From Burkholderiales bacterium (GTDB taxonomy: Bacteria > Pseudomonadota > Gammaproteobacteria > Burkholderiales > SG8-39): a stretch of 35,619 nt of DNA. Positions 15,377 through 35,379 of the stretch are shown here, one piece after another. Position numbers and translations under genes: made by a program. The DNA lies in NCBI GenBank assembly GCA_919902965.1, contig CAKKSJ010000059.1, positions 1 to 35,619 on the forward strand, read 5' to 3'. The notes beneath the pieces were generated by a model. The model was not told the origin of the DNA. It saw nothing but the letters and a program-made list of their open reading frames with translations, and searched no databases. The first letter of the stretch is position 1; the number at the start of each line of letters is the position of its first letter.

Positions 15377-16261
15377 ATGCAACTAAACTGGCCATATGAA
15401 GCTGCGACGCCGCCGCGGGCAGGCATCGCCCGGTTTACCCAGCCGGAATCGAATATCTGCCTCGATTTTCACGGCGACCCGCGGGCGGCGCGGCTCGTCG
15501 TGTTCTCAGACGGCAATCATCACATGGCGCTGGCTGAGTCGCTGGCGCTGTTTCGCGCGCGGTATCCGGCGGTCGACGACATTTTCTATACCACCACCCC
15601 GCCGCGCGTGATTGTGGAGGCGTTCGCGTCGGGCGCGCTGTTGCTGGGCAATCTCAAATTGTCACTTGCTCCGCATGTGTTCATCAGCCCGGCGCCGGTA
15701 CTTGAGCGCCTGCGCAAAGACGGTCGCCTGCGCGAGCATGTGCCATTCGTGACCAGCCGCGGCAGCGTGATGTTGCTGCGCAAAGGCAATCCAAAGCGCA
15801 TTTTGGACGCCGCCGATCTTGTGCGCGAGGATGTGCGCATCTTTCTTTCCAACCCGGTGAACGAAAGCGTGAGTTTCGAGGCGTATGTGGCGACGCTGCG
15901 CGCCATCGCAGCCAGCCGCGGGCTCGACTACGGATTTATCGACCCGGCGCCGGGCTCATCGAGGCGCGTGGTGTATGGCGACTGTATCCACCATCGCGAG
16001 GCACCGCAATGCCTGGTCGACGACCGCGCCGATGTAGCGATCGTCTATTATCACCTCGCGTTGCGCTATGTCCGAATATTTCCGGAGTTGTTTGATTTCA
16101 TCGCGTTGACCACCGACGGCGATCCGGCTCAGGTCGTCAGCCCTGCCCACCTGGGACTGGTCGGTGACGGTGGGGAGTGGGGCGTGCGTCTGAGCGAATT
16201 CCTGCTTGGCGACGAGGTTGCCGCGGTGTACCGGTACCACGGCCTCGACCCTGTCCGCTAG
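15377..16261 (+). CDS. periplasmic-binding-protein-fold (ModA/anion-binding-like) protein without a signal peptide
   Basis: 294-aa ORF. LVVFSDGNHH...FISPAP...ADVAIVYYHLA resembles the layout of type II PBP (molybdate/sulfate-binding) proteins. No hydrophobic leader is present. The functional call is weak. Confidence 0.5.
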   Translation: MQLNWPYEAATPPRAGIARFTQPESNICLDFHGDPRAARLVVFSDGNHHMALAESLALFRARYPAVDDIFYTTTPPRVIVEAFASGALLLGNLKLSLAPHVFISPAPVLERLRKDGRLREHVPFVTSRGSVMLLRKGNPKRILDAADLVREDVRIFLSNPVNESVSFEAYVATLRAIAASRGLDYGFIDPAPGSSRRVVYGDCIHHREAPQCLVDDRADVAIVYYHLALRYVRIFPELFDFIALTTDGDPAQVVSPAHLGLVGDGGEWGVRLSEFLLGDEVAAVYRYHGLDPVR

Positions 16262-18871: not shown

Positions 18872-19627
18872 ATGAACCAGAAAGTTATCGCGATATCCAC
18901 GGCGCCGCAGCTTGCGGCCGCCGCAGACGGGACGCACGCCGCCCCGACGCTGATCGCCCCGTCCAATTTTCTGGCCCAGCTCGACGCGAACGAGGCAGCC
19001 GGCCTGCAGGCGATTGCGATAGCGCGCCATTACGCCAAGGGCGACTATGTGTTTCGCTGCGGCGGTCCGGGCCATAACGTCTATTTCCTGCGCAGCGGGA
19101 GGATCAAGATCCATCAGCTTTCGCCGCTCGGGCGCGAGGTGATTCTGTGGTTCTGCTTTTCGGGCGAAATATTCGGGCTCGCCGAAGCGGCGCGCGGCGG
19201 CGAGCGCGCCGTCAACGCGCAGGCTTGCGAGGCGTCCGAAGTGCTGGCGGTCGCACAGGACAAATTTGGGAACTATCTAGACCATCATCCGCATGTGGCG
19301 AAGCTGAGCATGCAGGTGCTGTCCTCGCGCTTGCGCGTGCTGGGCGAAATGTTTGTGAATCTGGTCGCCGATGACGTCAACACGCGCATCGGCAAGCTGA
19401 TACTGCGCTTGAGCGCACGCTACGGAACGCGTGTGGGCAAGGAGATTTTCCTCAACATCCCGCTGACGCACCAGGAGATCGCCGACATGATCGGCACCTC
19501 GCGCCAGACCGTGACCAGCGCGCTGGGCGCGCTGAAGCGGCAGGGGGTGCTGAGCATAGACAATCGCCGCATCCACATCGAAAGCGAGGAACTGTTGAAC
19601 GAGCTTGCGCGCGACGGCGCTCGCTAG
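18872..19627 (+). CDS. Crp/Fnr-family transcriptional regulator (high-GC paralog)
   Basis: A cNMP-binding-like beta-roll (YVFRCGGPGHNVYFLRSGRIKI) plus a C-terminal HTH (LTHQEIADMIGTSRQTVTSAL). There is no FNR-type N-terminal Cys cluster. Confidence 0.85.
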   Translation: MNQKVIAISTAPQLAAAADGTHAAPTLIAPSNFLAQLDANEAAGLQAIAIARHYAKGDYVFRCGGPGHNVYFLRSGRIKIHQLSPLGREVILWFCFSGEIFGLAEAARGGERAVNAQACEASEVLAVAQDKFGNYLDHHPHVAKLSMQVLSSRLRVLGEMFVNLVADDVNTRIGKLILRLSARYGTRVGKEIFLNIPLTHQEIADMIGTSRQTVTSALGALKRQGVLSIDNRRIHIESEELLNELARDGAR

Positions 19628-19711
19628 TGTTTCGGGGGTTCTGCCGGACTGTTTTTTCGGTCGCTCCGGCACGCGCATACCCGGCAACAGGCGCATAATG
19701 GCCGGATAACT

Positions 19712-20392
19712 ATGGACGCTCTGTGGTATCTGCATGAACAAGATTTCTTTTCCGGCTTGAACGCCGAAAAGAAGGCGTTCATCTCTCATTCAAAAAAGAG
19801 ATCCATCAAGAGAAATGTATATCTGTTCAGTCAGGGAGAGGCCGGTGATTCCGTCTTTTATCTCGAGAGCGGCGAGGTGCGGATTTCCCGCCTGACTCCG
19901 CATGGAAAAGAGTCGATTGTATTCATACGGCATGCCGGTGAACTATTCGGTCTGGCCGAAGCCATAGGCGGCGTAGCAAGGACTTGCAGCGCCCAGGCCA
20001 TAAGCGCGTGTCGTTTGTATGAGATTCAGCGAATGGAGCTCGAAGAACTGCTTTCACGGCACTGGGCTCTCTCCAGGCGGGTGATGGAAGTTCTCGGAGG
20101 CCGCTTGAGGTATCTCGGAGAACAGTTGGGCAATTTGATGTCCTGCGACGTGACTACCAGATTGTCGAGACTGCTTTTTTACTTGAGCTGCTATAAGCAG
20201 ATGGATCCCGAAGTCTGGAATGCGTCTGATGCCATCCCGGTGAAACTCACCCAGGAACAAATGGCGTCGATGATAGGATCATGCCAGCAAACCGTAAGCG
20301 CGGTTCTCAAGCAATTCGAGATGGAAGGCCTGATCCGAGTTTCCCGCAATCGTCGGGAAATCATCATCCTCAAACCCGTAAGCCTGGTCTAA
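19712..20392 (+). CDS. Crp/Fnr-family transcriptional regulator (low-GC paralog, first gene of the island)
   Basis: A beta-roll (YLFSQGEAGDSVFYLESGEVRISR) plus an HTH (LTQEQMASMIGSCQQTVSAVL). There is no FNR Cys cluster. It is AT-richer than its neighbour. Confidence 0.85.
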   Translation: MDALWYLHEQDFFSGLNAEKKAFISHSKKRSIKRNVYLFSQGEAGDSVFYLESGEVRISRLTPHGKESIVFIRHAGELFGLAEAIGGVARTCSAQAISACRLYEIQRMELEELLSRHWALSRRVMEVLGGRLRYLGEQLGNLMSCDVTTRLSRLLFYLSCYKQMDPEVWNASDAIPVKLTQEQMASMIGSCQQTVSAVLKQFEMEGLIRVSRNRREIIILKPVSLV

Positions 20393-20719
20393 AGTTATCC
20401 ATAGCGGTTGAGTCAGCTTCTGCCGGTTCCTAATCCGGCAACTATCGTCCAAGCGATAGAACCCACTTGTCAATTAGGGTTATCGTACCGCCAACTTCGG
20501 AGTCCACTGAAATCGTTTTGCGATGATTGGCGACCCGTTCCTGCGTAAAAGATTACCGTCTATCAATCGTCAATCGGCACGGTCTGAGCTCCGGCACTGT
20601 GCATGAGATGCGTTCCAGTCACCCCGGCCCACGCCTTCCGGTCGAAATCCCGGACGGCACGCCGGCCTGAGAGATTATTACCGGCAGGACCTTCCAGATT
20701 CGTCTAAGGAGAAAAGCAT

Positions 20720-21271
20720 ATGAAAAACGCGTTGGTTTCAGCAGTCATGGCCGTATTCTTTTTGGGCATGGGGGGAGTGGCGTCTGCAGCAGACATCACG
20801 CCGAAGATGCAGCAGAAAATCGATGTCTACAAGAAGAAGGCGGTCGAATGGGCCGCTGATGCGAAATTGATAGAAGCGGTGAAGCAGAGCAATGCCAAAG
20901 GCCCGGTGACGGCGAATGCCAAGTGGCGCGAACTGAAGGAAACAGACCCCGTTGTTCAGGGTTTGGTAAGCAGCCCGACAGGCCAGCTTTTGACCCAATG
21001 GATGAATGCCGACGCCAAGGGCATCAACAAAATCGTGCTTAGCGGCGACAAAAGCCACCGCGTCGCATTCACCTCTATGCCGGCCATCTACATCGGCAAG
21101 ACCAAGCCCAATTTCGACGAGTCCTTCGGCGGCAAGGTGTGGCAGCAGGGCGAGTCCAAGCCAGATCCGAGCACTAACATCGATACGGTGCAAATTTCCG
21201 CACCGGTGAAAGATGGAAACAAAATAATCGGCGTGCTTCTTGTCAGCCTCACCGCGGCGAACTTGAAGTAG
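20720..21271 (+). CDS. secreted single Cache/PDC-like ligand-binding protein
   Basis: 183-aa ORF with AAGGAG 8 nt upstream and a signal peptide (...GMGGVASA/AD). The C-terminal ISAPVKDGNKIIGVLLVSL is typical of Cache-fold beta strands. It has no TM or output domain. Confidence 0.6.
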   Translation: MKNALVSAVMAVFFLGMGGVASAADITPKMQQKIDVYKKKAVEWAADAKLIEAVKQSNAKGPVTANAKWRELKETDPVVQGLVSSPTGQLLTQWMNADAKGINKIVLSGDKSHRVAFTSMPAIYIGKTKPNFDESFGGKVWQQGESKPDPSTNIDTVQISAPVKDGNKIIGVLLVSLTAANLK

Positions 21272-21319
21272 GTGGCGATGAAAACGTCCGCAGGAGTAAT
21301 CAATAGAAAGGGAGCGGTT

Positions 21320-22840
21320 ATGAACAAATTGGATACGCCGATTTCCGTCCCGGCCAGTGGCTTCTTCGGCCGGTTCGTAGATAACATTCGTGCACGTGAG
21401 GGCACGCCGGCCAAGACATTGATCGGGTTTTTTGCCGCTTGGGCGGCGTTTTTCTTCATTCTCTGGGTCATGCCGCTACCCGCAGGCATGACCCCCGCCG
21501 GAAAAGCGACCCTGGCGGTTCTGGTATGGGCCACGATCATGTGGATAACCGAAGCCATACCCGTCGGTGTATCAGGACTGATTATTCCCATGCTTCTGGT
21601 TATGGGCGGGGCGGCCGCCAAGTTTCCGGCAGCCGCAAGCGGTTTCGCTCAACCCGTTGCTTTCCTGACCCTGGCGGCGTTCTTGTTTGCCGCCATCATT
21701 CAAGCCGCCGGACTCGATCGGCGTATTGCCATCACGCTGATGAAAAAATTTCGCGTAAAAGAAGTCGGCGGTGTGATTTGGGCGATGTTCGGCGTCAACC
21801 TGGTGCTGTCGTTCATCATCCCGGCGGCGAACGCCAGGGCTGCCACTTTGCTGCCGGTCGTGAACGGCATTACCAGCTTGTTTGGCGACACGCCGGAGGA
21901 GCGCGCCGGAAAGAAAGCGATAGTCATACAGTCGCTGGTGTACGGCTCGATGATCAGCGGCATGTGCATCATGACCGCGCATCTGCCCAATCTGATTCTG
22001 GTGGGGCTGTTTGACACGGAACTGGGCTACACCCTCTCGTATTTCAACTGGTTCCTGCTGCAATGGCCTTACCTGGGCATGTTTGTCATAACGCAGTGGT
22101 GGGTGCAACACTACTTCAAGACGCGCGGAGTCATGATCCCCGGCGGTTTGGAAAAAGTAAGGGAAATGCACACACAACTGCCCAAAACCAGCCAGACGGA
22201 ATGGTTGATATTGGCGGTATTCGCGCTGGTCGGGCTGCTGTGGATGACGGAGTCCGTTCATCACATTAAGGCGCAGAACGCGGCCTTGATGGGCATTGCG
22301 ATTGCCTTCATTCCGGGGATGTTCGACTTCAAATGGAAAATGCTCCAGGACCGGACGATCTGGGGGACATGGTTGCTGCTGGCCGGCGCCTTGTCCATGT
22401 CCGCCACCATGGGGACCTCCGGTCTGGCGGGATGGCTGGCCGACGTGATTCACCCTGTTGCCGCAGGGCGTTCGTGGTGGCTAATCCTGCTCATACTCAT
22501 GGTTGGCACGCATATCATCCGGCTGGGAATGCTGTCCAATATCGCGGCCATCGCCATGCTGGCACCCGTGCTGATAGCGCTGGGGCCCAAGTTCGGGCTG
22601 CATCCGGTTGCTTTCACCATGCTCATTTCCGATACGGATACCTTTGCCTATATCCTGCCGACGCAGATTACCGCCGCGGTTATCGCCTACAGCAGCGGCA
22701 CCTTCAGCATGGCGGATTATGCCAAGGTGGGATGGGTGTCTGTGCTCATCGCCATTGCCTACGGCATCCTGGTCATGGCGCCCTGGTACGCGTTTATGGG
22801 TATTCCGGTCTGGAATCCTTCAGCACCCTGGCCATTCTGA
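21320..22840 (+). CDS. SLC13/DASS-family anion:cation symporter
   Basis: The start is set at ATG 21320 (AGGGAG 5 nt upstream; the ORF-track start at 21272 directly abuts the previous stop codon). It is a polytopic protein with duplicated hairpin motifs (PAANARAATLLPV and LPTQITAAV) of the kind seen in DASS/ArsB-NhaD superfamily permeases. Confidence 0.8.
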   Translation: MNKLDTPISVPASGFFGRFVDNIRAREGTPAKTLIGFFAAWAAFFFILWVMPLPAGMTPAGKATLAVLVWATIMWITEAIPVGVSGLIIPMLLVMGGAAAKFPAAASGFAQPVAFLTLAAFLFAAIIQAAGLDRRIAITLMKKFRVKEVGGVIWAMFGVNLVLSFIIPAANARAATLLPVVNGITSLFGDTPEERAGKKAIVIQSLVYGSMISGMCIMTAHLPNLILVGLFDTELGYTLSYFNWFLLQWPYLGMFVITQWWVQHYFKTRGVMIPGGLEKVREMHTQLPKTSQTEWLILAVFALVGLLWMTESVHHIKAQNAALMGIAIAFIPGMFDFKWKMLQDRTIWGTWLLLAGALSMSATMGTSGLAGWLADVIHPVAAGRSWWLILLILMVGTHIIRLGMLSNIAAIAMLAPVLIALGPKFGLHPVAFTMLISDTDTFAYILPTQITAAVIAYSSGTFSMADYAKVGWVSVLIAIAYGILVMAPWYAFMGIPVWNPSAPWPF

Positions 22841-23005
22841 GTGGCGATTCGAGTTGAAGTCCTCCGCGCAACCATGGCCGGAGGACTGCAAGGGGAAATT
22901 AAATCCAGCAAGTGCCATTCGGGTTCAAGGTCATCGCTACCTGTCGGTTCCCGGACTTAGTGCTTCCAGCACGGCTACGAAATAAATTTGACGGAGCTTG
23001 AAACA

Positions 23006-24841
23006 ATGAAAAAAGATCTCCCAAAAACCATCGCCGAGGTTGAAGAGATAAGGATAGAGACCGATCTCCTTATCATCGGCGGAGGCAACTCCGGTTGCTT
23101 TGTCGCGATCGAGGCGAAGGAGAAGAACCCCAACATCGATGTGACCATCATGGAAAAGGCGCACATCGACCGCAGCGGCGCCCTGGCCGCGGGCATGGAT
23201 GCCATCAATACCTATATCGGCGAAGGCGAGACGCCGGAATCGATCGTCGCCTGGAGCCGGGCGCAGGTCGGTGGCGGCCCCCTGAGAGAAGACCTTGCCC
23301 TGAGCAATGCCGCTATCCTGAACCAGTGCGTGGAGTCTCTCGAAGCCTGGGGAGTGCCGTTCAAAAAAGACGAGAAGGGTAGATACAAGAGAAGGGGAAG
23401 ATTCGATATCTCCATTCATGGAGAACAGTTGAAGCCGATCATCGCCGAGAAGACGAAGAGCTACAACCCACGGATATTGAACCGGGTTGCGGCGACCAAT
23501 TTGCTCAAAGACGGAGACCGCGTCATCGGCGCCACGGGCTTCGGCATCAGGGACGGCAAATTTTACGTAATCAAGGCCAAGGCCACCATCGTGTCTACCG
23601 GCGGCGCCGCCGGCCTGTACCGTTCGGCGACCAACGACGGCACAACCTCGCACCACCAGATGTGGATGAACCCTTTCAACGTGGGCACGGGATATGCCAT
23701 AGGCATCAGGGCCGGTGCCGAGTTTACGCTCATGGAACAGCGCTGGTGCGCGACCAGGGTGAAGGATTTCTGCGGACCGGTGGACACCATCTCCGTAGGC
23801 TACAAGGCGAAAATGATCAACGCCAAGGAAGAGTTGATCCTGGATTCACCGCGATACCGCGGTCTCGGAGGCGACACGGCGCCGCGTTACATACGGGCCA
23901 ACGCGCCCATGAGCGAATGGAGCGAAGGCAGAGGGCCGACCTTCGTGGATACGCGCCAACTCTCTCCGGGCCAGGTCAAGGACCTCAAGATCGACTATCT
24001 CAACGAACGGCCTACCTATGTGCTTTTCCTGGCGGCACGGGGGCAGGATCCGGCGAAAGAGCCCCTGGAAATCTACGGCAGCGATCCCTACATCGTCGGC
24101 GGTCACACGGCCAGCGGCTACTGGGTCGATGGCGACAGAATGGCGACCCTTGCGGGCCTGTTCGCGGCCGGCGAGTGCGCGGGCGGGATGCCGAACAAGT
24201 TTGTCGGCGGATGCGCGGCGGAGGGAGTCCTCGCCGCGCGCGGGACGCTAAAGCATATCTCGGGCATGGATCACGGCAACGTCGATCAAAATCAGGTCGC
24301 GGCGGAAAAGGAAAGGGTGTTCGCGCCGCTCTTGCGCGGCGCGACCATGGAAGCCAAATACACCCTGCCCGTCGGGCAGGACCCGCGCTGGCAGTATGAC
24401 GCAGTCACGCCGGAGGAGATGGAGGAGCGGCTGCAAAGACTCATGGACGAGTACGCCGGCGGGGTGGGCCAGTTCTTCAAGTGCAACGAGGAGCAGCTCA
24501 ACTACGCCCTCAAGCATATCGGGATGATGAAGAAACAGGTGAACAAGCTGTTTGCGACCAGCCTGCACGATCTCGTCCTTGTCCACGACGTTGTCGACCG
24601 TCTCGACGTCGCCGAGGTGGTGGTCCTGCATTTGCGCGAGAGAAGGGAGTGCAGATGGCCCGGTTGGCAGACGCGGAGCGATTACCCCGAGGTCGATCCG
24701 AGCCTCGACTGTTACATCAACTCGAGAAAGAATCTCGAGACGGGCGAGATCGAGATGCTGAAACGGCCTTACCAGCAGGTTCTTCCCGGGGACCGGACGA
24801 AGGCTCCGTCGCCGATTCCGCTTTCCGCAGAGAAGGCATAA
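23006..24841 (+). CDS. adenylylsulfate (APS) reductase alpha-subunit-like FAD flavoprotein, divergent
   Basis: The start is set at ATG 23006 (GGAG upstream; the ORF track begins at TTG 22988). It has the dinucleotide fold DLLIIGGGNSG. Blocks SGALAAGMDAINTYIG, MEQRWCATRVKDFCGPV, EGRGPTFVDT, DPYIVGGHTASGYW, DEYAGGVGQFF and ERRECRWPGWQTRSDYP...KRPYQQVLPGD align by eye with AprA blocks I remember, including the AprA-specific C-terminal domain. Confidence 0.75.
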   Translation: MKKDLPKTIAEVEEIRIETDLLIIGGGNSGCFVAIEAKEKNPNIDVTIMEKAHIDRSGALAAGMDAINTYIGEGETPESIVAWSRAQVGGGPLREDLALSNAAILNQCVESLEAWGVPFKKDEKGRYKRRGRFDISIHGEQLKPIIAEKTKSYNPRILNRVAATNLLKDGDRVIGATGFGIRDGKFYVIKAKATIVSTGGAAGLYRSATNDGTTSHHQMWMNPFNVGTGYAIGIRAGAEFTLMEQRWCATRVKDFCGPVDTISVGYKAKMINAKEELILDSPRYRGLGGDTAPRYIRANAPMSEWSEGRGPTFVDTRQLSPGQVKDLKIDYLNERPTYVLFLAARGQDPAKEPLEIYGSDPYIVGGHTASGYWVDGDRMATLAGLFAAGECAGGMPNKFVGGCAAEGVLAARGTLKHISGMDHGNVDQNQVAAEKERVFAPLLRGATMEAKYTLPVGQDPRWQYDAVTPEEMEERLQRLMDEYAGGVGQFFKCNEEQLNYALKHIGMMKKQVNKLFATSLHDLVLVHDVVDRLDVAEVVVLHLRERRECRWPGWQTRSDYPEVDPSLDCYINSRKNLETGEIEMLKRPYQQVLPGDRTKAPSPIPLSAEKA

Positions 24842-24930
24842 GGAATAGAAACGCAGGAATTCGTGTCCAGGATTTCATTCTGCCCTGCCGGTCTCGGCCG
24901 CGGATTGCTTAACTTACAGAGGACAAACAC

Positions 24931-25257
24931 ATGCCGGTCTATGTCGTAAAAGATAAATGCGATGGGTGCAAGGGAAAGGACGAACCCCTGTGCGAGCAGA
25001 TATGCATCGGCGACCTCATGACCTTGAACGCGGACACGGGAAAGGCGTACTGCCGCTCCCTCAGGGATTGCTGGGACTGCATGTCCTGCACCAAGATATG
25101 CCCCAAGGGGGCCATAGAGCAGCGCATTCCCTATCAGCTCGGATACCACGGCGCGAAGCTCATTCCCATGATGGGCACCGACTCCATAACCTGGACCTGC
25201 GTCGACATCGACGGCAAGGTGGAGAGATTTTCCTTTCGCACGAGAAACAAACACTGA
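24931..25257 (+). CDS. APS reductase beta-subunit-like 2x[4Fe-4S] ferredoxin, short form
   Basis: 108 aa with AGAGGA 7 nt upstream. MPVYVVKDKCDGCKGKDEPLCEQIC and CWDCMSCTKICPKGAI mirror the two AprB cluster motifs, including the Trp in CW(E/D)C. It lacks the long C-terminal tail of canonical AprB. Confidence 0.7.
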   Translation: MPVYVVKDKCDGCKGKDEPLCEQICIGDLMTLNADTGKAYCRSLRDCWDCMSCTKICPKGAIEQRIPYQLGYHGAKLIPMMGTDSITWTCVDIDGKVERFSFRTRNKH

Positions 25258-25272
25258 ACCGCCTGCCGCCCT

Positions 25273-27381
25273 ATGAGCGATATCACAATCGGCGTCTTCC
25301 TCTGCAGCTGCGCAGGCGAAATTGAAAAGACGATCGCTCTCGACGTGCTCGCACAGGAGGCATCCGGGCGACCCGGGGTGGTCTCCGTCAGCAAGGATTC
25401 CTGTCTCTGTTCGGAACGCGGAATAGACGCCATACGGGAAGACATCAACAAGTACGAACTCGATCGGGTGCTGATCGCGGCCTGTTCGCCTGCCCTGAAA
25501 ACCAGAGAATTCGCGGATCTCGGCATCAACAAATATCTGGTCGAGCGCGTGAACTTGCGCGAGCAATGCAGCCGGTGCCATCCCGATAGTCCCGAAAATG
25601 CGACAAAAAAGGCAAGGGCGATGCTGGCGATGTCTTTGGAGAAAATCAGGCACTCCAAAGCCCTCGAACCGGTAGTGGTGCCCGCGGTCAAGACGGCGCT
25701 GGTGGTGGGCGGAGGGGTTGCCGGCATCAATGCCGCTCTTGACCTGGCGGGAGCGGGCGCCGAGGTGTTCCTGATCGAAAAGAACCCTCATCTCGGCGGG
25801 AAGGTATCCGAACTGCACCGCTATTATCCCCGCCTGTGCCCGCCGTCCTGCGGACTGGAACTCATGTATTCCAGGCTGGAGAGTAACCCGCACATTCATG
25901 TCCTTACCTCGTCCGAGGTTGAGAACCTGAGCGGCTCGCCGGGTAATTTTTCTGTTTCAATAAAGACCACCTCGTCCGACGCAATCAAATCTCCGGAAAA
26001 GGATCAGGTGCGTACGATCATCGCCGGTGCCGTTGTTGTCGCAACCGGATGGGAACCTTTTGATCCGACGCCGCTTAGCGAATACGGCTACGGCAGACTC
26101 GCAAAGGTCATCACGAACCTGGATTTCGAAAGAAACGCCCGGGAACAGGCGCAATTCCTCGGGCAACGGAAGAAAACCGCCTTTATACAATGCGTCGGCA
26201 GCCGCGATGAACGCCATCTGCCGTACTGCTCCGATGTCTGCTGCATGGTAAGCATCAAGCAAGCGCTTTTGCTCAAACAGGCCAATCCCGATAACGAGGT
26301 AACTATTTATTACAACGATATCCGGACGCCGGGCGAGTACGAAGCTGTGTACCGACAGGCGAGAGCCAGCGGGATACATTTTGTTAAAGGCATCCCTTCC
26401 GAACTGCGACAGGACGCGCAGGGAAGAATAAGCGTTGCCGTATTCGACCTCATAGCAGGCGAAAGGACCGAATTCGCCGCCGACCTGGTTGTACTCGCGA
26501 CCGGTATGAAAGCTTCCCGCGGAACGACGGCGCTGAAGAACGCAATCGGCCTGGCCACGAACAAAGACGACTTCATCGAGTCGCACTTGCAATGTCATCC
26601 CCAGGACAGCCAGCGGGAGGGCATATTTACCGCCGGCTGCTGCCGCGCGCCCATGGACGTCTCGAGGTCGATCGAGAGCGCAGGAGCGGCGAGCGCCAAG
26701 GCGCTGCGCTATCTTCAAGGCGAAATTGCGGTCAGTCCCGATTATCCGGTCGTCGATATCCTGAAGTGCGACCGCTGCAAACGCTGCGTGGAGGAGTGTC
26801 CGTTCAAGGCCTACGCCTACGATGACAAGGGATTTCCGCAAGTTGATATTCTCAAGTGCCGCGCCTGCGGCATCTGCATGGGGGGCTGCCCCATCGGCGC
26901 GATTTCGCTCGGCGAACTCGGCATAGAGCAACTTTCGGGAATGTTAGACGTCCTGGACACGTCCTATCTTGGAGAGGATGAACCGGTAATCCTCGGATTT
27001 CTGTGCAAGAACGACGCCTACCGGGCGGCGGATGACGCGGGACTGAACAGCATCTCCTACCCACCAAACCTGATCAGCGTCATGGTCCCCTGCTCGGGCG
27101 CCGTGAACGGCATGATCATCTCCGAGGCCATTTCAAAAGGCGTGGACGGGATTCTGCTCGCCGGATGCGCCGATAACCAGTGTCATTATCTGCACGGGAG
27201 CACGCTGGCAAAAACGAGATTGGCGGATGTCTCGAACAAGCTCAAGGAGATGTATCTGGAGCCTGAAAGAGTCCGCTTCGCGAGCATAGGCAGGGACGAT
27301 CCGGAGAAGTTTGCCGCGACGGTAAAGGAATATGTAGAGGAGCTGAAGCAGTTGGGGAAAAATCCGCTGAGGATCCAGTGA
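25273..27381 (+). CDS. HdrA/QmoB-like FAD and FeS protein with a C-terminal MvhD-like domain
   Basis: 702 aa. It combines an HdrA N-domain (IGVFLCSCAGEI...AACSP...REQCSRCH), an FAD motif (VVGGGVAGINAALDLAG), the HdrA cluster motif QCVGSRDERHLPYCSDVCC, a 2x[4Fe-4S] ferredoxin (CDRCKRCVEECP, CRACGICMGGCP), and an MvhD-like end (FLCKNDAY...VPCSGAVN...LLAGC...CHY). No inserted ferredoxin domain is present. Confidence 0.8.
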   Translation: MSDITIGVFLCSCAGEIEKTIALDVLAQEASGRPGVVSVSKDSCLCSERGIDAIREDINKYELDRVLIAACSPALKTREFADLGINKYLVERVNLREQCSRCHPDSPENATKKARAMLAMSLEKIRHSKALEPVVVPAVKTALVVGGGVAGINAALDLAGAGAEVFLIEKNPHLGGKVSELHRYYPRLCPPSCGLELMYSRLESNPHIHVLTSSEVENLSGSPGNFSVSIKTTSSDAIKSPEKDQVRTIIAGAVVVATGWEPFDPTPLSEYGYGRLAKVITNLDFERNAREQAQFLGQRKKTAFIQCVGSRDERHLPYCSDVCCMVSIKQALLLKQANPDNEVTIYYNDIRTPGEYEAVYRQARASGIHFVKGIPSELRQDAQGRISVAVFDLIAGERTEFAADLVVLATGMKASRGTTALKNAIGLATNKDDFIESHLQCHPQDSQREGIFTAGCCRAPMDVSRSIESAGAASAKALRYLQGEIAVSPDYPVVDILKCDRCKRCVEECPFKAYAYDDKGFPQVDILKCRACGICMGGCPIGAISLGELGIEQLSGMLDVLDTSYLGEDEPVILGFLCKNDAYRAADDAGLNSISYPPNLISVMVPCSGAVNGMIISEAISKGVDGILLAGCADNQCHYLHGSTLAKTRLADVSNKLKEMYLEPERVRFASIGRDDPEKFAATVKEYVEELKQLGKNPLRIQ

Positions 27382-27382
27382 G

Positions 27383-27823
27383 ATGGACAATGCACTCATT
27401 GACGGAGCAAGCCTGAAATCCTGCTATCGCTGCGGAAAATGTACTTCCGGCTGCGAGGTGAACCGCATCGATCCTTCATTTCAACCGCACAGGCTGCTTC
27501 AGCTCATCGCCAGGGGCGCGGTGGATGAACTCATCGATGGCGACGCAATTTGGAAATGCACGACCTGTTTCACCTGTGCCGAGAGATGTCCGCAGGGAAT
27601 AGCGGTAACCGATATTCTCTGGAGCTTGAGGGCGCTGGCGTTTAGATCCTGCCGTAACTCGGGGCTGCTCGAGGCGCAAAAGGCTGCCCTGTTCAAGACC
27701 GGCAGGCTGTATCCGGTGACTGGCCTTGACCATAAGAAACGCGAGAAGGCGGGGCTTCCTCCTCTGGCGGAGAACGCAACTCTCATAAGCCGCATATTTG
27801 ATGCAGCGAAAGCGGGCGGATAG
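27383..27823 (+). CDS. heterodisulfide reductase subunit C-like 2x[4Fe-4S] protein
   Basis: 146 aa with CYRCGKCTSGCE and CTTCFTCAERCP motifs. The start is 2 nt after the upstream stop. Confidence 0.8.
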   Translation: MDNALIDGASLKSCYRCGKCTSGCEVNRIDPSFQPHRLLQLIARGAVDELIDGDAIWKCTTCFTCAERCPQGIAVTDILWSLRALAFRSCRNSGLLEAQKAALFKTGRLYPVTGLDHKKREKAGLPPLAENATLISRIFDAAKAGG

Positions 27824-27828
27824 TTATT

Positions 27829-28692
27829 ATGAAATACGCCTTATACCTGGGCTGTGCAACGCCGGTCAGGGCCCTGAAATACGAAATATCGACCAGAAAC
27901 GTGGCCAAACGTCTGGGCATAGAACTCGTCGACCTTCCTGAATTCAGCTGCTGCGGGTTTCCGGTCAAGTCTATGGATCTGTTTGCCGCGCTGCTCATGG
28001 CTGCCCGCAATCTCGCCCTGGCGGAAGAGCGCGGTCTGGACATCATAGGCTTGTGCACCGGATGCGTAGCGGTCCTGTCGGAAGCGAAACTGCAATTGGA
28101 AGATGAGAAGCTGAGGGACAGGGTCAACGAGAAGCTGAAGACGCTGGGAGTACCGGAATACCGCCAGGGGGTCGGCGTCAAGCATTTTGCGAGATTCTTG
28201 AACGAGGATTACGGACTTGATGCGCTGAGCAAAGAGATCGGCGCCCCGTTAAAGTCTTTGAAGTTTGGCATTCATTATGGCTGCCATTATGCGAAGCCGA
28301 GCCATGCGCATGATCACTTTGATGACCCGTCAAACCCTGTCTCGCTTGACAAACTGATACAGGGCGCCGGCGCAGAGACGATCGACTACCCGGAGAAAAA
28401 CCTCTGCTGCGGCCTGACGATCCGGGGCGCAGCCGAAGATGTAAGCGTGAAGCTCGCCGCGGAAAAGCTCGAAGCCCTGTCGAACAGAGGGGCCGACGCC
28501 ATGGTGGTCGCTTGTCCCTCCTGCTGCATTGCCTATGAAAACAATCAACAGCTGGCCGGAAGAAAAATGGGAAAAGAATTCAAGCTCCCGGTCGTTTATT
28601 TTACCCAGGTACTCGGCTGTGCCCTGGGGCTGAAGGAAGAGGATCTCGGGTTTGAGTTCAACCGGGTTGAATTTCACCCGGCTGCGCGCTAA
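27829..28692 (+). CDS. heterodisulfide reductase subunit B-like protein with two CCG domains
   Basis: 287 aa with two Cys-rich CCG repeats (GC...SCCGFP...CTGC and GCHY...LCCGL...CPSCC). Confidence 0.8.
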   Translation: MKYALYLGCATPVRALKYEISTRNVAKRLGIELVDLPEFSCCGFPVKSMDLFAALLMAARNLALAEERGLDIIGLCTGCVAVLSEAKLQLEDEKLRDRVNEKLKTLGVPEYRQGVGVKHFARFLNEDYGLDALSKEIGAPLKSLKFGIHYGCHYAKPSHAHDHFDDPSNPVSLDKLIQGAGAETIDYPEKNLCCGLTIRGAAEDVSVKLAAEKLEALSNRGADAMVVACPSCCIAYENNQQLAGRKMGKEFKLPVVYFTQVLGCALGLKEEDLGFEFNRVEFHPAAR

Positions 28693-29813: not shown

Positions 29814-29819
29814 TTGTGC

Positions 29820-30080
29820 ATGAATTGCGCTGAGCGATTGGTATCGATTTTCGGCAGCCAGGCCGAGGTGGCGCGGCGCTTGCGCCTGGATCGCGCAGTC
29901 GTCAATAACTGGGTCAAGTCCGGTTATGTTCCGGCGCGCTGGGCGATGGAAGTCGAGCATGCCACCGAGGGCAAAGTGGCCGCGGTCGAAGTGCTCAACG
30001 AAGCCAATGCGAAAAAACCGGTTCGAGTCAAATCGCGCCCCGACGATCTGTTCGGGTCGCATCTTCCAGGGAGTGACAGC
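29820..30080 (+). CDS. Cro/YdaS-like (DUF1019-type) HTH segment with no stop codon of its own; reads in frame into the aminotransferase
   Basis: MNCAERLVSIFGSQAEVARRLRLDRAVVNNWVKSGYVPARWAMEVEHATEGKV...RPDDLF resembles YdaS/Cro-type small repressors. There is no stop before ATG 30081. It may be a fusion, a lost stop, or a sequencing issue. Confidence 0.5.
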
Positions 30081-34857: not shown

Positions 34858-35379
34858 TCAGGCCGTTGTGACGGGCGGCGCCGAATCCAGGCGCCGCCTG
34901 AAAAGGGGATAGGGCCGCTCCACCGAGGCCTGGTAGGTTTCGCCGAAATCGTCAAAGGCGTGCAGCGCTTTATCGGGATCCTGATCCGCGCGCAGAGCAA
35001 AGGCGTCGAAGCCGCAGCGGGAAAGATAAAAGAGCTGGTCGCGCTGCACGTCGCCGATGGCGCGCAGTTCGCGGCGATAGCCGTAGCGTTCACGCAGCAG
35101 GCGCGCCAGCGAATAGCCGCGGCCGTCGGTGAAGCGAGCAAGGCGGATGGCGATCAGGTGAAAATGCGCCAGATCGGGCGCGATCGCAGCGGGGTCTGCG
35201 TCGGCCTCCAACCAGACGCCGACGCGGCCGAGGCGGAACGACAGCGCGTCGCGCTCCTTCGCCCACAGATCGAGCGGCACGATCACATCGCCGCTGAACG
35301 GCAGCGCCCCAGGCGCATTCTGCTCAAGCAGCTGCCAGCTGTCTTGGATTACGATGCGGTGTTTGATGAGTCGTTGCAT
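34858..35379 (-). CDS. DUF934-family protein (sulfite-reductase-associated)
   Basis: 173 aa. FTDGRGYSLARLLRERYGY...LRAIGDV is the DUF934 core as I recall it. It lies immediately downstream of a sulfite reductase gene. Confidence 0.75.
   Translation of the reverse strand: MQRLIKHRIVIQDSWQLLEQNAPGALPFSGDVIVPLDLWAKERDALSFRLGRVGVWLEADADPAAIAPDLAHFHLIAIRLARFTDGRGYSLARLLRERYGYRRELRAIGDVQRDQLFYLSRCGFDAFALRADQDPDKALHAFDDFGETYQASVERPYPLFRRRLDSAPPVTTA

What the first reader, a model, noticed from the sequence alone, without database searches (positions are those of the whole stretch)
19712..28692. Orphan AprA/AprB-like pair wired to a soluble HdrA(MvhD)-HdrC-HdrB module, a DASS anion permease, a secreted Cache-like protein and its own Crp-family regulator: candidate undescribed redox system
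- **What is there:** eight co-directional genes. Gaps are small inside the redox module (about 2-90 nt) and larger only in front of the first structural gene. The products are a Crp-family regulator, a signal-peptide Cache/PDC-like protein, an SLC13/DASS permease, a 611-aa AprA-like flavoprotein, a 108-aa AprB-like di-cluster ferredoxin, a 702-aa HdrA/QmoB-like protein with a fused MvhD-like domain, an HdrC-like protein and an HdrB-like (2xCCG) protein.
- **How it differs from known loci:** known dissimilatory APS reductase loci are aprB-aprA, usually with sat and a membrane-coupled partner (QmoABC or AprM). Some Gram-positive sulfate reducers instead have qmoAB-hdrCB.
- **What is missing or unusual:** the order here is A then B. 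The window holds no sat, qmoA, qmoC/aprM or dsr, and the module has no membrane-anchored redox subunit. A dedicated importer, a periplasmic ligand-binding protein and a regulator are attached to it.
- **Alternative reading:** the flavoprotein + FeS + CCG-type HdrBC logic also recalls thiol:fumarate reductase and type-E succinate dehydrogenases. The substrate may therefore not be APS.
- **Working hypotheses:** (a) a cytoplasmic sulfite/APS-type enzyme coupled to a thiol/disulfide or bifurcating Hdr module rather than to quinone; (b) a reductase or oxidase for an imported sulfonated or carboxylated anion that reuses the AprA scaffold.
Basis: partly seen in the sequence, partly recalled or inferred. 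Interest (0 to 1): 0.88.

Follow-up and report, generated by a model that had tools for sequence, protein, structure and literature searches.

The report
Hdr-coupled APS-reductase-like operon with importer
A horizontally acquired operon joins a distinct, uncharacterised relative of the sulfate-respiration enzyme APS reductase to a soluble heterodisulfide-reductase electron module, an anion importer and its own regulator; the same unit recurs in many anaerobic sulfur bacteria and its substrate is still unknown.

Summary
All eight genes are present as described. They form a real unit: in 44 related loci with full flanks, the AprA-like/AprB-like pair sits beside an anion importer in 43 and a Crp-family regulator in 43. 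An HdrA-MvhD gene follows in 38 of 63 loci. A palindrome, TATCG-N6-CGATA, marks the promoters (55 exact sites against about 1 expected), with one perfect copy in the window.

The flavoprotein is not a canonical AprA. Its closest solved relative is the PAPS reductase of a methanogen (45% identity). It belongs to a separate, tight subfamily:
- It keeps the catalytic Asn/Arg/His/Trp and the adenine-stacking Arg.
- It has two invariant aspartates (D134, D260) found in neither APS nor PAPS reductases.
- It is never linked to sat or cysC.

The locus is a lower-GC island in a Burkholderiales contig, and its closest relatives are in Nitrospirota.

Most likely function: an imported-anion-dependent, Hdr-fed, soluble reductase that makes sulfite from an APS-like sulfuryl donor. 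The substrate is unproven. The "Cache-like" protein is not a conserved part, and the fumarate-reductase analogy is unsupported. This is a new variant of a known kind and is worth biochemical study.

The parts
19712..20392 (+). Crp/Fnr-family regulator (226 aa, 'Crp#2'); no FNR-type N-terminal Cys cluster
   Evidence: Pfam cNMP_binding plus HTH_Crp_2; sequence. It is 83% identical to the regulator of Nitrospirota locus L006 and 50-60% identical to regulators of the same loci in other phyla. A Crp-family gene lies within 6.5 kb of aprA-like in 43 of 44 fully flanked loci.
20443..20458 (.). Perfect palindrome TATCGTCCAAGCGATA, candidate operator of the locus regulator, 262 nt upstream of the first transport gene
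   Evidence: It is the only exact TATCG-N6-CGATA match in the 35.6-kb window. Across 81 loci (1.42 Mb) there are 55 exact sites against 1.09 expected. Forty of them lie within 350 nt upstream of the importer or aprA-like genes. The consensus is TATCGTCCAGCCGATA.
20720..21271 (+). 183-aa secreted protein of unknown fold. Its stop codon abuts the DASS ORF. Possible periplasmic accessory of this DASS subtype.
   Evidence: Signal peptide MKNALVSAVMAVFFLGMGGVASA|AD. No Pfam or NCBIfam hit; weak MCP-like_PDC_1 at E = 0.079. AlphaFold single-sequence model has pLDDT 50.5. Homologues occur only in L006 (87%) and L013 (73%), always directly upstream of the same DASS subtype.
21272..22840 (+). DASS (SLC13-type) anion permease
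   Evidence: Pfam Na_sulph_symp at 3e-63; TIGR00785 scores 202.5 against 198.6. Nearest solved structure is VcINDY at 2e-24. DASS is present in 37 and a TctCBA transporter in 6 of 44 fully flanked loci.
23006..24841 (+). AprA-like FAD flavoprotein (611 aa) of a distinct subfamily (called 'W-type' here)
   Evidence: NF005331 scores 584.5 against 557; TIGR02061 aprA scores 378 against 642. PDB hits: 8A8O_A at 7e-145, 1JNR_A at 2e-97, FrdA at about 1e-11. Foldseek top hit is 8A8O, TM 0.70/0.76.
24931..25257 (+). AprB-like 2x[4Fe-4S] ferredoxin subunit (108 aa); Trp48 conserved, C-terminal tail absent
   Evidence: TIGR02060 scores 93.6 against 135.65. PDB hits: 1JNR_B at 1e-25 over residues 1-105 of 150; 8A8O_C at 7e-15. 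It follows aprA-like in essentially all loci.
25273..27381 (+). HdrA-like flavo-FeS protein with a C-terminal fused MvhD domain (702 aa, HdrA2-like architecture)
   Evidence: Pfam FlpD at 9.5e-38 (residues 573-695), Pyr_redox_2 and Fer4. NF040770 HdrA2 scores 585 bits, below its cut-off of 1100. PDB HdrA 8RVU_a at 5.5e-105 and MvhD 8RVU_F at 3e-23.
27383..27823 (+). HdrC-like 2x[4Fe-4S] subunit (146 aa)
   Evidence: TIGR03290 at 3.8e-26, below its cut-off. Two CX2CX2CX3C motifs.
27829..28692 (+). HdrB-like subunit (287 aa) with two complete CCG motifs
   Evidence: Pfam CCG x2 at 6e-25; TIGR03288 scores 238 against 345. PDB HdrB 5ODC_B at 2e-62, full length. Cys pattern C9/C41C42/C76xxC79 and C152/CC(193-194)/C229xxC232.
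18872..19627 (+). Second Crp/Fnr-family regulator ('Crp#1') directly upstream. Host-like GC3. Membership in the unit is uncertain.
   Evidence: Pfam cNMP_binding plus HTH_Crp_2. It is 35-39% identical to the regulator that sits directly upstream of aprA-like in Nitrospirota loci. GC3 is 0.81 against 0.61 for Crp#2. It lies outside the stretch homologous to L006.
15377..16261 (+). Cytoplasmic SBP_bac_11-fold protein (294 aa, no signal peptide); possibly associated
   Evidence: Pfam SBP_bac_11. Weak partial CysP/Sbp hits. It is 46-49% identical to the protein encoded next to tctA in the TTT-type loci L030, L033, L035 and L057. Sequence.

Best explanation
The locus (about 19.67-28.69 kb) is a self-contained, horizontally transferable operon set.

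**Proposed mechanism**
1. A Crp-family regulator acts at a TATCG-N6-CGATA operator and switches on an anion importer. Here the importer is DASS plus a small periplasmic protein.
2. The same regulator switches on a soluble two-subunit flavo-iron-sulfur reductase, AprA-like/AprB-like.
3. The reductase uses the AprA mechanism: flavin N5 attacks a sulfuryl sulfur. This releases sulfite from an activated S(VI) donor.
4. The donor is most probably APS or a closely related nucleotide sulfate, not PAPS. It would be made from imported sulfate by a sulfurylase encoded elsewhere.
5. Electrons reach AprB through the MvhD domain of the HdrA-like protein.
6. HdrC/HdrB (here), or a Flx-like NAD(P)H module (in other hosts), feed HdrA. 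HdrA's flavin may bifurcate, so that exergonic S(VI) reduction is coupled to ferredoxin reduction.
7. The sulfite goes to the host's sulfite reductase.

**Shown**
- Gene content and intact cofactor motifs.
- Subfamily identity of the flavoprotein.
- Conserved synteny and a shared operator motif.
- Island character of the locus.

**Inferred**
- The substrate.
- The direction of the reaction.
- The electron path and any bifurcation.
For: **One functional unit**
- Importer in 43 of 44 and Crp in 43 of 44 fully flanked loci. HdrA-MvhD in 38 of 63 loci with enough downstream sequence.
- The operator palindrome is about 50-fold enriched and sits upstream of the importer and aprA-like genes. The window has one perfect site.

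**AprA-type chemistry is retained**
- N68, W220, R251, R297 and H367 (A. fulgidus N74, W234, R265, R317, H398) are invariant in 120 of 120 subfamily members.
- The best sequence and fold matches are the PAPS and APS reductases.
- AprB-like keeps both clusters and Trp48.

**Probably not PAPS**
- The PAPS-reductase subfamily has [RK]-G-[KR]-R-[SN] in the loop that PMC10322725 proposes accommodates the 3'-phosphate. It is encoded next to APS kinase and ATP sulfurylase.
- The window subfamily has R-G-x-[WF]-D instead, with an aromatic residue as in canonical AprA and an acidic D134.
- No neighbourhood cluster of the W-type loci was annotated as cysC or sat.

**Hdr as the electron-input module**
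- The genes after aprB are interchangeable. They are HdrA-MvhD plus HdrCB, HdrA-HdrC plus a Flx-like NAD-binding/FeS set, an MvhD-ferredoxin protein, or nothing.
- AprA-like stays 60-92% identical while HdrA varies over 36-69%.
- HdrA, HdrC and HdrB motifs are intact.
- PMC10322725 states that the physiological electron-donating partner of the related enzyme is unknown.

**Hosts**
- They are mostly sulfate/sulfite reducers and sulfur disproportionators.
- This host has cysI-DUF934 6 kb away.
Against: - No sat or cysC was found in the neighbourhood of any of the 81 loci, so a nucleotide-sulfate substrate must come from elsewhere.
- The importer is replaced by a TctCBA (TTT) system in about 6-10 loci. 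To my knowledge that family carries organic carboxylates or sulfonates and is not known for sulfate.
- Several unrelated DASS lineages (27-89% identity) were recruited.
- The nearest solved DASS structures are dicarboxylate carriers.
- Two invariant aspartates (D134, D260) in the presumed ribose/adenine pocket have no counterpart in either characterised enzyme. The leaving group may therefore not be AMP.
- The reaction direction, the AprB-MvhD contact and bifurcation are untested.
- The AlphaFold model is poor in the capping domain, so no pocket geometry could be examined.
- Assignments of substrate-contact residues rest on the published A. fulgidus and M. thermolithotrophicus descriptions and on my recollection of them.
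Confidence: 0.5

Rival explanations
1. The enzyme acts directly on the imported anion. This would be a non-nucleotide S(VI) or organosulfur compound, such as a sulfate ester or a sulfonated/sulfated carboxylate. Reductive release of sulfite would bypass ATP-dependent sulfate activation. Hdr/Flx would supply the electrons.
For: - Near-universal linkage to organic-anion-type importers: DASS, or TctCBA in 6 of 44 loci.
- PhnD/SsuA-like oxyanion-binding proteins lie beside DASS in about 11 loci.
- A sulfotransferase gene lies inside three loci.
- No neighbourhood cluster was annotated as sat or cysC.
- Subfamily-specific invariant D134, D260 and V264 sit in the leaving-group pocket.
Against: - The adenine-stacking Arg (R297) and the aliphatic partner position are kept.
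- Flavin-N5 attack needs a good leaving group. Plain alkyl sulfates and C-sulfonates are chemically poor substrates for it (inference).
- No such activity is known in this enzyme family.
Confidence: 0.25
2. It is simply a bacterial PAPS reductase for assimilatory sulfate reduction, like the M. thermolithotrophicus enzyme. DASS would be the sulfate importer.
For: - The closest solved relative is the PAPS reductase 8A8O.
- PMC8477390 proposed an assimilatory role for AprAB-like complexes and noted Na:sulfate symporters nearby.
- R130 is shared with the PAPS-reductase subfamily.
Against: - The basic K/R-R pair and the S/N of the 3'-phosphate loop are replaced by x-[WF]-D.
- APS kinase is adjacent in all three PAPS-type loci examined, but no neighbourhood cluster of the 81 W-type loci was annotated as APS kinase.
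- Hosts are mainly sulfide-producing organisms that need no assimilation.
- This host already has cysI-DUF934.
- A dedicated bifurcating-type Hdr module is unusual for an assimilatory step.
Confidence: 0.08
3. It runs oxidatively: sulfite plus a nucleotide gives APS, and the electrons pass to the Hdr module. This would be a sulfite oxidation or detoxification route, as in AprBA-QmoAB-HdrCB systems of sulfur oxidisers.
For: - Canonical AprBA is reversible, and qmoAB-hdrCB accompanies it in some sulfur oxidisers (PMC4148979).
- The host is a Burkholderiales bacterium.
- The HdrB site is intact and could reduce a disulfide.
Against: - The related PAPS reductase showed no reverse activity (PMC10322725).
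- The sulfite/APS couple (about -60 mV, textbook value) is too positive to drive Hdr-type bifurcation.
- Most hosts are reducers or disproportionators.
- A Flx-like NAD(P)H module replaces HdrB in some loci, which suggests electron input.
Confidence: 0.08
4. It is a non-sulfur enzyme: a soluble reductase for an imported unsaturated di- or tricarboxylate, analogous to thiol:fumarate reductase, built on an AprA-like scaffold.
For: - The importer families typically carry carboxylates.
- AprA belongs to the fumarate reductase superfamily.
- HdrB-type CCG proteins occur in TfrB and type-E SDH (one search lists weak TfrB and SdhE hits).
Against: - TfrA scores 113 against a cut-off of 718. SdhA/FrdA hits are at 1e-12 against 1e-145 for the PAPS reductase.
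- The AprA-specific sulfite-binding residues are invariant.
- The AprB-like partner is specific to the Apr family.
Confidence: 0.05
5. It is an artefact: the contig is a metagenomic chimera, or the island is a decaying, non-expressed acquisition in this host.
For: - The window is a whole 35.6-kb metagenome contig.
- The locus has lower GC (0.53-0.61) than the left flank at 11-19 kb (0.63-0.67); the right flank at 29-33 kb is only slightly higher (0.605-0.615).
- It is homologous at the nucleotide level only to Nitrospirota loci.
Against: - Neither flank matches the Nitrospirota loci at the nucleotide level. The left flank has a PhaC 91% identical to Burkholderiales MAG proteins. The right flank (ttcA, cysI-DUF934) was not taxonomically tested.
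- All eight ORFs are intact, with intact cofactor motifs.
- The identical AprA-like protein occurs on an independent contig.
- In any case, the unit itself is real in 80 other genomes.
Confidence: 0.04

Closest known systems
PAPS reductase of Methanothermococcus thermolithotrophicus (PDB 8A8O; PMC10322725) and its bacterial relatives in cysC-aprA-like-aprB-like-sat operons
   Same: - Alpha-then-beta gene order, a short beta subunit without the AprB tail, and the same fold.
- Best sequence match (7e-145; 45% identity).
- Catalytic Asn/Arg/His/Trp and the stacking Arg are shared, and Arg replaces A. fulgidus E141 in both.
- Soluble, with no membrane partner.
   Different: - A different subfamily. 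The 3'-phosphate loop reads R-G-x-[WF]-D rather than [RK]-G-[KR]-R-[SN]. D260 replaces G246, and V264 replaces Q250.
- Not seen next to APS kinase, ATP sulfurylase, small sulfite reductase, or TusA/ThiF genes (against 30).
- Linked instead to Crp, DASS/TTT and Hdr/Flx modules.
Canonical dissimilatory APS reductase AprBA with QmoABC (or qmoAB-hdrCB in Gram-positive sulfate reducers and some sulfur oxidisers)
   Same: - FAD plus 2x[4Fe-4S] heterodimer.
- The catalytic residues are the same, and an aromatic residue sits at A. fulgidus W144.
- An HdrA-family flavoprotein with an MvhD domain plus HdrC/HdrB lies next to it, as in qmoB-hdrCB.
   Different: - Fails the aprA and aprB equivalog models.
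- 38% identity to A. fulgidus AprA.
- The APS-pocket residues E141, Q145, G274 and L278 are replaced.
- No AprB tail, and reversed gene order.
- No QmoA, no QmoC/AprM membrane link, and no sat.
- Has a dedicated importer and regulator.
HdrA2B2C2 of Methanosarcina acetivorans and MvhAGD-HdrABC of methanogens (electron-bifurcating heterodisulfide reductases)
   Same: - HdrA fused to MvhD, as in HdrA2 (best NCBIfam hit).
- HdrB has two CCG motifs and HdrC has two clusters.
- Strong matches to solved HdrA, HdrB and MvhD.
   Different: - Scores lie below the equivalog cut-offs (585 against 1100; 238 against 345).
- The bacterial host has no CoM/CoB, so the thiol/disulfide partner is unknown.
- It is partnered with an AprAB-like enzyme rather than a hydrogenase or F420 module.
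FlxABCD-HdrABC of Desulfovibrio (NADH-linked Hdr; from my own knowledge, not checked in a paper here)
   Same: In Desulfocapsaceae-type loci, the aprAB-like-hdrA-hdrC genes are followed by two FeS proteins and an NAD-binding/2Fe-2S protein resembling FlxCBA. The logic is a soluble NAD(P)H-to-HdrA-to-acceptor chain.
   Different: The proposed acceptor is the AprAB-like enzyme rather than DsrC. This variant is not present in the window.
'AprAB-like alternate complex' defined by the DiSCo HMMs (PMC8477390)
   Same: It covers this family. The paper notes the missing AprB tail, gaps in the AprA capping and helical domains, and nearby Na:sulfate symporters. It lists Deltaproteobacteria and Nitrospira among the hosts.
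   Different: In the text read:
- The two subfamilies are treated together, and sulfur assimilation is proposed as the role.
- The Hdr/Flx modules, the Crp regulator and operator, the TTT alternative and the double-Asp signature are not described.

Membership tests
Canonical dissimilatory AprA (TIGR02061) | Score at or above the curated equivalog cut-off | tested here: not met
   378.3 bits against a cut-off of 641.75.
Canonical dissimilatory AprA | Catalytic/sulfite-binding residues N74, R265, H398 and FAD-side W234 (A. fulgidus numbering) | tested here: met
   N68, R251, H367 and W220 are invariant in 120 of 120 subfamily members.
Canonical dissimilatory AprA | APS ribose/adenine pocket residues E141, Q145, V273-G274, L278 | tested here: not met
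   The window has R130, D134, V259-D260 and V264. The stacking R317 is kept as R297. Residue roles are taken from PMC10322725 and my recollection of the A. fulgidus structure papers.
Canonical dissimilatory AprB (TIGR02060) | Equivalog score, and the C-terminal tail that wraps AprA | tested here: not met
   93.6 bits against 135.65. The protein is 108 aa and aligns to residues 1-105 of the 150-aa A. fulgidus AprB.
Canonical apr locus | aprB-aprA order with sat and QmoABC or AprM | tested here: not met
   The order is A-B. None of these genes was seen in the window or in the 81 related loci.
NCBIfam NF005331 'adenylyl-sulfate reductase subunit alpha' (PRK06854-type, short AprA-like) | Score at or above the curated cut-off | tested here: met
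   584.5 bits against 557.
AprAB-type PAPS reductase (MtPAPSR type) | Basic 3'-phosphate loop [RK]118-G-[KR]120-R121-[SN]122 | tested here: not met
   The window has R130-G-R-F-D134. The subfamily has R-G-x-[WF]-D in 120 of 120 members, against [RK]-G-[KR]-R-[SN] in the 120 PAPS-type members.
AprAB-type PAPS reductase (MtPAPSR type) | Genomic linkage to APS kinase (cysC) and ATP sulfurylase | tested here: not met
   cysC is adjacent in 3 of 3 PAPS-type loci examined; sat or cysD/N is in the same loci. No such cluster was seen in the 81 W-type loci.
AprAB-type PAPS reductase (MtPAPSR type) | PAPS-dependent activity; alpha2beta2 assembly | not testable with these tools
   Needs purified protein.
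HdrABC heterodisulfide reductase | HdrB with two CCG motifs (CX31-39CCX35-36CXXC) | tested here: met
   C9...C41C42...C76xxC79 and C152...CC...C229xxC232. PDB HdrB 5ODC_B at 2e-62, full length.
HdrABC heterodisulfide reductase | Equivalog scores for HdrA, HdrB and HdrC | tested here: not met
   HdrA2 scores 585 against 1100. HdrB TIGR03288 scores 238 against 345. HdrC TIGR03290 scores 92 against 160.
HdrABC heterodisulfide reductase | HdrA flavin/FeS domains plus MvhD contact (fused here, as in HdrA2) | tested here: met
   GxGxxG motif, CxGSRD...CS.VCC motif, 2x[4Fe-4S] ferredoxin domain, and FlpD domain at residues 573-695.
HdrABC heterodisulfide reductase | Reduction of CoM-S-S-CoB, or electron bifurcation | not testable with these tools
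   Needs biochemistry.
QmoABC | QmoA, QmoB and membrane-bound QmoC | tested here: not met
   There is one HdrA-like gene only. The 146-aa HdrC-like protein scores 51.9 against the 300 cut-off of the qmoC model, matching model positions 14-98 of 360 only, so the rest of QmoC is not covered.
Thiol:fumarate reductase TfrAB / SdhA-FrdA | Equivalog score for the flavoprotein | tested here: not met
   TfrA scores 112.6 against 718. sdhA_frdA scores 108 against 567. PDB FrdA/SdhA hits lie at 1e-11 to 1e-12.
DASS (TC 2.A.47) anion symporter | TIGR00785 subfamily score | tested here: met
   202.5 against 198.6. Substrate class cannot be assigned.
Crp/Fnr regulators | cNMP-binding-like effector domain plus C-terminal HTH | tested here: met
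   No FNR-type N-terminal Cys cluster in the sequence. All equivalog models score far below their cut-offs.
Cache/PDC extracytoplasmic sensor fold (for the 183-aa protein) | Significant profile or fold match | tested here: inconclusive
   MCP-like_PDC_1 at E = 0.079 over 34 residues. The AlphaFold model has pLDDT 50.5, showing helices followed by C-terminal strands.

The most novel reading that the evidence does not exclude
The AprAB-like/HdrA(MvhD)CB assembly is a soluble, flavin-based electron-bifurcating S(VI) reductase. A mid-potential donor feeds HdrA: a thiol at HdrB, or NAD(P)H through the Flx-like variant. HdrA splits the electrons between the high-potential sulfuryl substrate on AprA-like and ferredoxin. 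This would add an unrecognised energy-coupling step to sulfur respiration. A stronger version is that the sulfuryl substrate is the imported anion itself, a sulfate ester or sulfo-carboxylate. Sulfite would then be produced without ATP-dependent sulfate activation.
Probability: 0.2. Interest if true: 0.88.

Novelty: new variant of a known kind. Interest (0 to 1): 0.62.

Why it matters
- How electrons reach APS reductase, and whether Qmo/Hdr-type partners bifurcate or confurcate at that step, is as far as I know still an open question in sulfate respiration. For the related PAPS reductase, its authors state that the partner is unknown.
- This operon offers an entirely soluble AprAB-like plus HdrA-MvhD-HdrCB set. 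The set is conserved across Nitrospirota, Thermodesulfobacteriota, Bacillota and Acidobacteriota MAGs, and it can transfer to a Burkholderiales host. That makes the question testable with purified proteins.
- Genome annotation currently labels the protein 'adenylyl-sulfate reductase subunit alpha'. That may inflate predictions of sulfate reduction or sulfur oxidation in metagenomes.
- The subfamily signature (W83, R130, D134, D260, V264) and the operator motif give simple markers to separate it from true AprA.
- If the substrate is the imported anion, this would be a new entry point of organic or esterified sulfur into sulfite respiration.

Tried and rejected
- **Exact-match lookup of the AprA-like protein.** It returned only a 5-kb fragment, which was uninformative.
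- **Fold of the 183-aa protein.** The single-sequence AlphaFold model was too poor for a fold search (pLDDT 50.5). No homologue search was left to build an alignment. A relaxed Pfam scan gave only E = 0.079.
- **AlphaFold model of AprA-like.** Built from an 11-sequence alignment, it has mean pLDDT 63.5 and the capping domain is below 50. It served only for a fold search, not for pocket analysis.
- **Literature.** Eight full-text searches were run (plus one rejected for a malformed term), and seven papers were read. None describes the Crp-DASS-AprAB-like-Hdr arrangement.
- **Mobile-element signs.** No tRNA, Rfam family, long flanking repeat or transposase lies at the island borders. The transfer mechanism is unknown.
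- **Promoter and terminator scans.** Counts were at the level expected by chance.
- **DASS substrate class.** Similarity to solved structures only reflects bacterial against human origin.
- **Empty site in related genomes.** Two related Burkholderiales contigs share synteny only up to phaC, then diverge, so no precise empty site was found.
- **Rejected readings.** These were canonical AprBA, QmoABC, thiol:fumarate reductase, and FNR-type oxygen sensing (no Cys cluster).

Full report
**1. Observation**

The eight co-directional ORFs are present as described. Pfam and NCBIfam identify the following:
- A Crp-family regulator (19712-20392).
- A DASS permease (21272-22840; TIGR00785 scores 202.5 against a cut-off of 198.6).
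- A 611-aa AprA-like flavoprotein (23006-24841).
- A 108-aa AprB-like di-cluster ferredoxin (24931-25257).
- A 702-aa HdrA-like protein with a C-terminal MvhD/FlpD domain (25273-27381).
- An HdrC-like protein (27383-27823).
- An HdrB-like protein with two CCG domains (27829-28692).

The 183-aa product of 20720-21271 has a clear Sec signal peptide but no family hit. A relaxed scan gives only MCP-like_PDC_1 at E = 0.079. A single-sequence AlphaFold model is unreliable (pLDDT 50.5). The 'Cache-like' label therefore remains a guess.

Cofactor motifs are intact:
- Both CCG motifs of HdrB.
- Two CX2CX2CX3C motifs of HdrC.
- The FAD and FeS motifs and the MvhD cysteines of HdrA.
- Eight cluster cysteines and Trp48 of AprB-like.

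Solved methanogen HdrA, HdrB and MvhD match strongly (5.5e-105, 2e-62 and 3e-23).

**2. What the flavoprotein is**

- It passes NCBIfam NF005331, a short 'adenylyl-sulfate reductase alpha' model (584.5 against 557). It fails the canonical aprA equivalog TIGR02061 (378 against 642). AprB-like fails TIGR02060.
- Against the PDB, the best match is the alpha subunit of the PAPS reductase of Methanothermococcus thermolithotrophicus (8A8O, 7e-145). A. fulgidus AprA follows at 2e-97, D. gigas AprA at 7e-66, and FrdA/SdhA at about 1e-12.
- A Foldseek search with a medium-confidence model gives the same order.
- Identity is 45% to the PAPS reductase and 38% to A. fulgidus AprA.
- The thiol:fumarate reductase idea is not supported (TfrA scores 113 against 718).

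**3. A distinct subfamily**

I aligned 120 close relatives of the window protein with 120 relatives of the PAPS reductase and with A. fulgidus AprA.

All three groups keep N74, W234, R265, R317 and H398 (A. fulgidus numbering; N68, W220, R251, R297 and H367 in the window). These are the sulfite-binding and catalytic set plus the adenine-stacking arginine.

They differ in the nucleotide pocket:

| Group | Loop at Af 141-145 | Segment at Af 273-278 |
|---|---|---|
| Canonical AprA | E141-G-Q-W-Q145 | V273-G274-A-W-F-L278 |
| PAPS type | [RK]-G-[KR]-R-[SN] | T-G-T-I-A-Q |
| Window type | R130-G-x-[WF]-D134 | V259-D260-T-I-S-V264 |

- In the window type, D134 and D260 are invariant in 120 of 120 sequences.
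- PMC10322725 attributes PAPS specificity to the basic loop, and says Q145 would clash with the 3'-phosphate.
- The window type lacks the K/R-R pair and has an acidic residue at that spot. PAPS is therefore unlikely.
- The E141-to-R and Q145-to-D changes look like a charge swap. A carboxylate could still reach the ribose hydroxyls (inference).
- A full HMMER scan of 1.84 billion representatives found 179 relatives at E <= 1e-30. Of the 71 full-length proteins among the best 150 hits, only one (P0361, 60% identical) carries the window-type signature.
- The subfamily is therefore tight. Its members are at least about 60% identical to the window protein.

**4. Genomic context elsewhere**

A scan of GTDB species representatives returned 80 loci. 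I clustered all neighbourhood ORFs without prior labels and annotated the recurrent clusters.

| Loci counted | Feature | Count |
|---|---|---|
| 44 with at least 6.5 kb on both sides | importer | 43 (37 DASS, 6 TctCBA) |
| same 44 | Crp-family gene | 43 |
| 63 with at least 4.5 kb downstream | HdrA-MvhD | 38 |
| same 63 | MvhD-ferredoxin protein | 4 |
| same 63 | no extra redox gene | 21 |
| 35 HdrA-positive with at least 7 kb downstream | HdrC | 28 |
| same 35 | HdrB | 20 |
| same 35 | Flx-like set (two FeS proteins plus an NAD-binding/2Fe-2S protein) | 5 |

- No recurrent neighbourhood cluster corresponded to sat, cysC or a sulfite reductase in any of the 81 loci.
- By contrast, three bacterial loci of the PAPS type all read cysC-aprA-like-aprB-like. 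They carry ATP sulfurylase (or cysD/N), a small sulfite reductase, TusA and ThiF, and two of them an ABC importer. That is a plain assimilatory operon.
- AprA-like is far more conserved (60-92% identity to the window protein) than HdrA (36-69%), HdrB (30-72%) or the DASS genes (27-89%, at least three lineages).
- So the catalytic pair is the constant element. Importer and electron-input modules are exchangeable.

**5. Regulation**

- The palindrome TATCG-N6-CGATA occurs exactly 55 times in the 1.42 Mb of loci, against 1.09 expected from composition.
- Forty of 81 loci have at least one site.
- Forty sites lie within 350 nt upstream of the importer or aprA-like genes. The consensus is TATCGTCCAGCCGATA.
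- The window has a single perfect site at 20443-20458, between the regulator and the first transport gene.
- This supports a dedicated regulator-operator pair.
- The regulator lacks an FNR-type cysteine cluster, so a small-molecule effector is more likely (inference).

**6. Host and origin**

- The window is an entire 35,619-bp contig.
- Its left flank (DsbA-like, OsmC, acyl-CoA dehydrogenases, thiolase, MerR, PhaC) is syntenic with Burkholderiales MAGs, and PhaC is 91% identical to theirs.
- The right flank carries ttcA, an aminotransferase, ycgR, tfoX, DUF934 and a NIR_SIR fragment at the contig end. That fragment is an assimilatory cysI-type sulfite reductase.
- Nucleotide homology to Nitrospirota loci (81-85% to L006, where AprA-like is 92-93% identical) covers the locus only. 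It starts at 19672; the match to L006 stops where that contig ends, and matches to other loci run to about 28668.
- GC is 0.53-0.61 inside the locus, 0.63-0.67 in the left flank (11-19 kb) and 0.605-0.615 in the right flank at 29-33 kb. GC3 shows the same contrast between the locus genes and their neighbours.
- The locus is therefore most simply a horizontally acquired island in a variable region.
- No tRNA, transposase or flanking repeat marks it.
- A chimeric assembly is unlikely because neither flank matches the Nitrospirota loci, but it was not excluded.

**7. Mechanism proposed**

- The retained AprA chemistry points to reductive release of sulfite from an activated sulfuryl donor.
- The interchangeable downstream modules all carry an MvhD-type or ferredoxin-type connector. 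They end either in a thiol/disulfide site (HdrB) or in an NAD(P)H site (Flx-like). They are best read as electron-input modules for AprB.
- PMC10322725 notes that the related PAPS reductase needs an unidentified partner to use F420H2 or NAD(P)H. These operons supply candidates.
- HdrA is a bifurcating flavoprotein in methanogens, and the APS/sulfite couple is high-potential (about -60 mV, textbook value). Coupling of S(VI) reduction to ferredoxin reduction from a donor near -250 to -320 mV is thermodynamically plausible. This part is speculation.

**8. Main uncertainty: the substrate**

- For a nucleotide sulfate (APS-like): R297, the aliphatic V264 and an aromatic residue at the A. fulgidus W144 position are kept.
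- Against it:
  - sat is absent everywhere.
  - TTT importers replace DASS in some loci.
  - PhnD/SsuA-like oxyanion-binding proteins sit beside many DASS genes.
  - A sulfotransferase gene lies in three loci.
  - Two aspartates are unique to this subfamily.
- I rate the APS-like reading at 0.5, a directly imported sulfur anion at 0.25, and the other readings low.

**9. Novelty**

- The family is known in outline: 'AprAB-like' in PMC8477390, and PAPS reductase in PMC10322725.
- In the papers I could search, none of the following is described: the subfamily split, its pocket signature, the Hdr/Flx coupling, the regulator-operator pair, or the importer alternatives.
- I class it as a new variant of a known kind, with moderate to high interest.

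Noticed in passing
window 16300-18720 (-): An 806-aa ORF that looks truly coding (GC3 0.84). It has no Pfam hit at E <= 0.01 and no homologue in any of the 80 related loci. It contains an HVHAHD metal-site-like motif. It lies between the SBP_bac_11-like gene and Crp#1.
   Followed up: partly
window 15377-16261 (+); L030 4574-5482, L033 4436-5446, L035 5399-6307, L057 8927-9868: A signal-peptide-less SBP_bac_11-fold protein. It is 46-49% identical to one encoded next to tctA in the TTT-type aprAB-like loci. This cytoplasmic 'binding protein' recurs with the system, and its role is unknown.
   Followed up: partly
window 18872-19627 (+): A second Crp/Fnr-family gene lies directly upstream of the locus regulator. 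It has host-like codon GC. It is 35-39% identical to the regulator type found directly upstream of aprA-like in Nitrospirota loci. Locus L023 carries both types.
   Followed up: partly
window 34858-35379 (-) and 35327-35617 (-): DUF934 and the C-terminal end of a NIR_SIR protein lie at the contig edge. DUF934 usually accompanies cysI in Proteobacteria (my own knowledge). The host therefore has a conventional sulfite reductase 6 kb from the island.
   Followed up: partly
window 19672-28692 against flanks: Island character. GC is 0.53-0.61 inside, against 0.63-0.67 in the left flank and 0.605-0.615 in the right flank. Nucleotide identity of 81-85% is only to a Nitrospirota MAG. Related Burkholderiales contigs lack the locus and diverge right after phaC.
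   Followed up: yes
window 20720-22840; L002 5508-7851; L023 2590-3420 and others: DASS permeases in these loci are repeatedly paired with a periplasmic protein. The partner is the 183-aa protein for one DASS lineage and a PhnD/SsuA-like binding protein for another. Binding-protein-dependent DASS transport is, to my knowledge, not described.
   Followed up: partly
L002 7868-9007; also L028 and L047: A Sulfotransfer_3-family gene sits between the DASS and Crp genes of some loci. This could point to sulfuryl-group transfer in the pathway.
   Followed up: no
L030, L035, L038 (full three-gene set); L033, L037 (partial), downstream of hdrC: HdrB is replaced by two FeS proteins (Fer4_22 type) and an NAD_binding_1/DHODB_Fe-S protein resembling FlxCBA.
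   Followed up: partly
L013 about 2735 and L070 about 3975: Second, divergent AprA-like paralogues lie near the main copy. The two outlier rows in the alignment, presumably these copies, lack the catalytic N/W/R/R residues.
   Followed up: no
window 29814-31337 (+): The class-V aminotransferase ORF carries an N-terminal Cro/YdaS-like HTH segment (residues 8-61; 'carph-isopro' domain). This is either a fusion or an over-extended TTG start.
   Followed up: no
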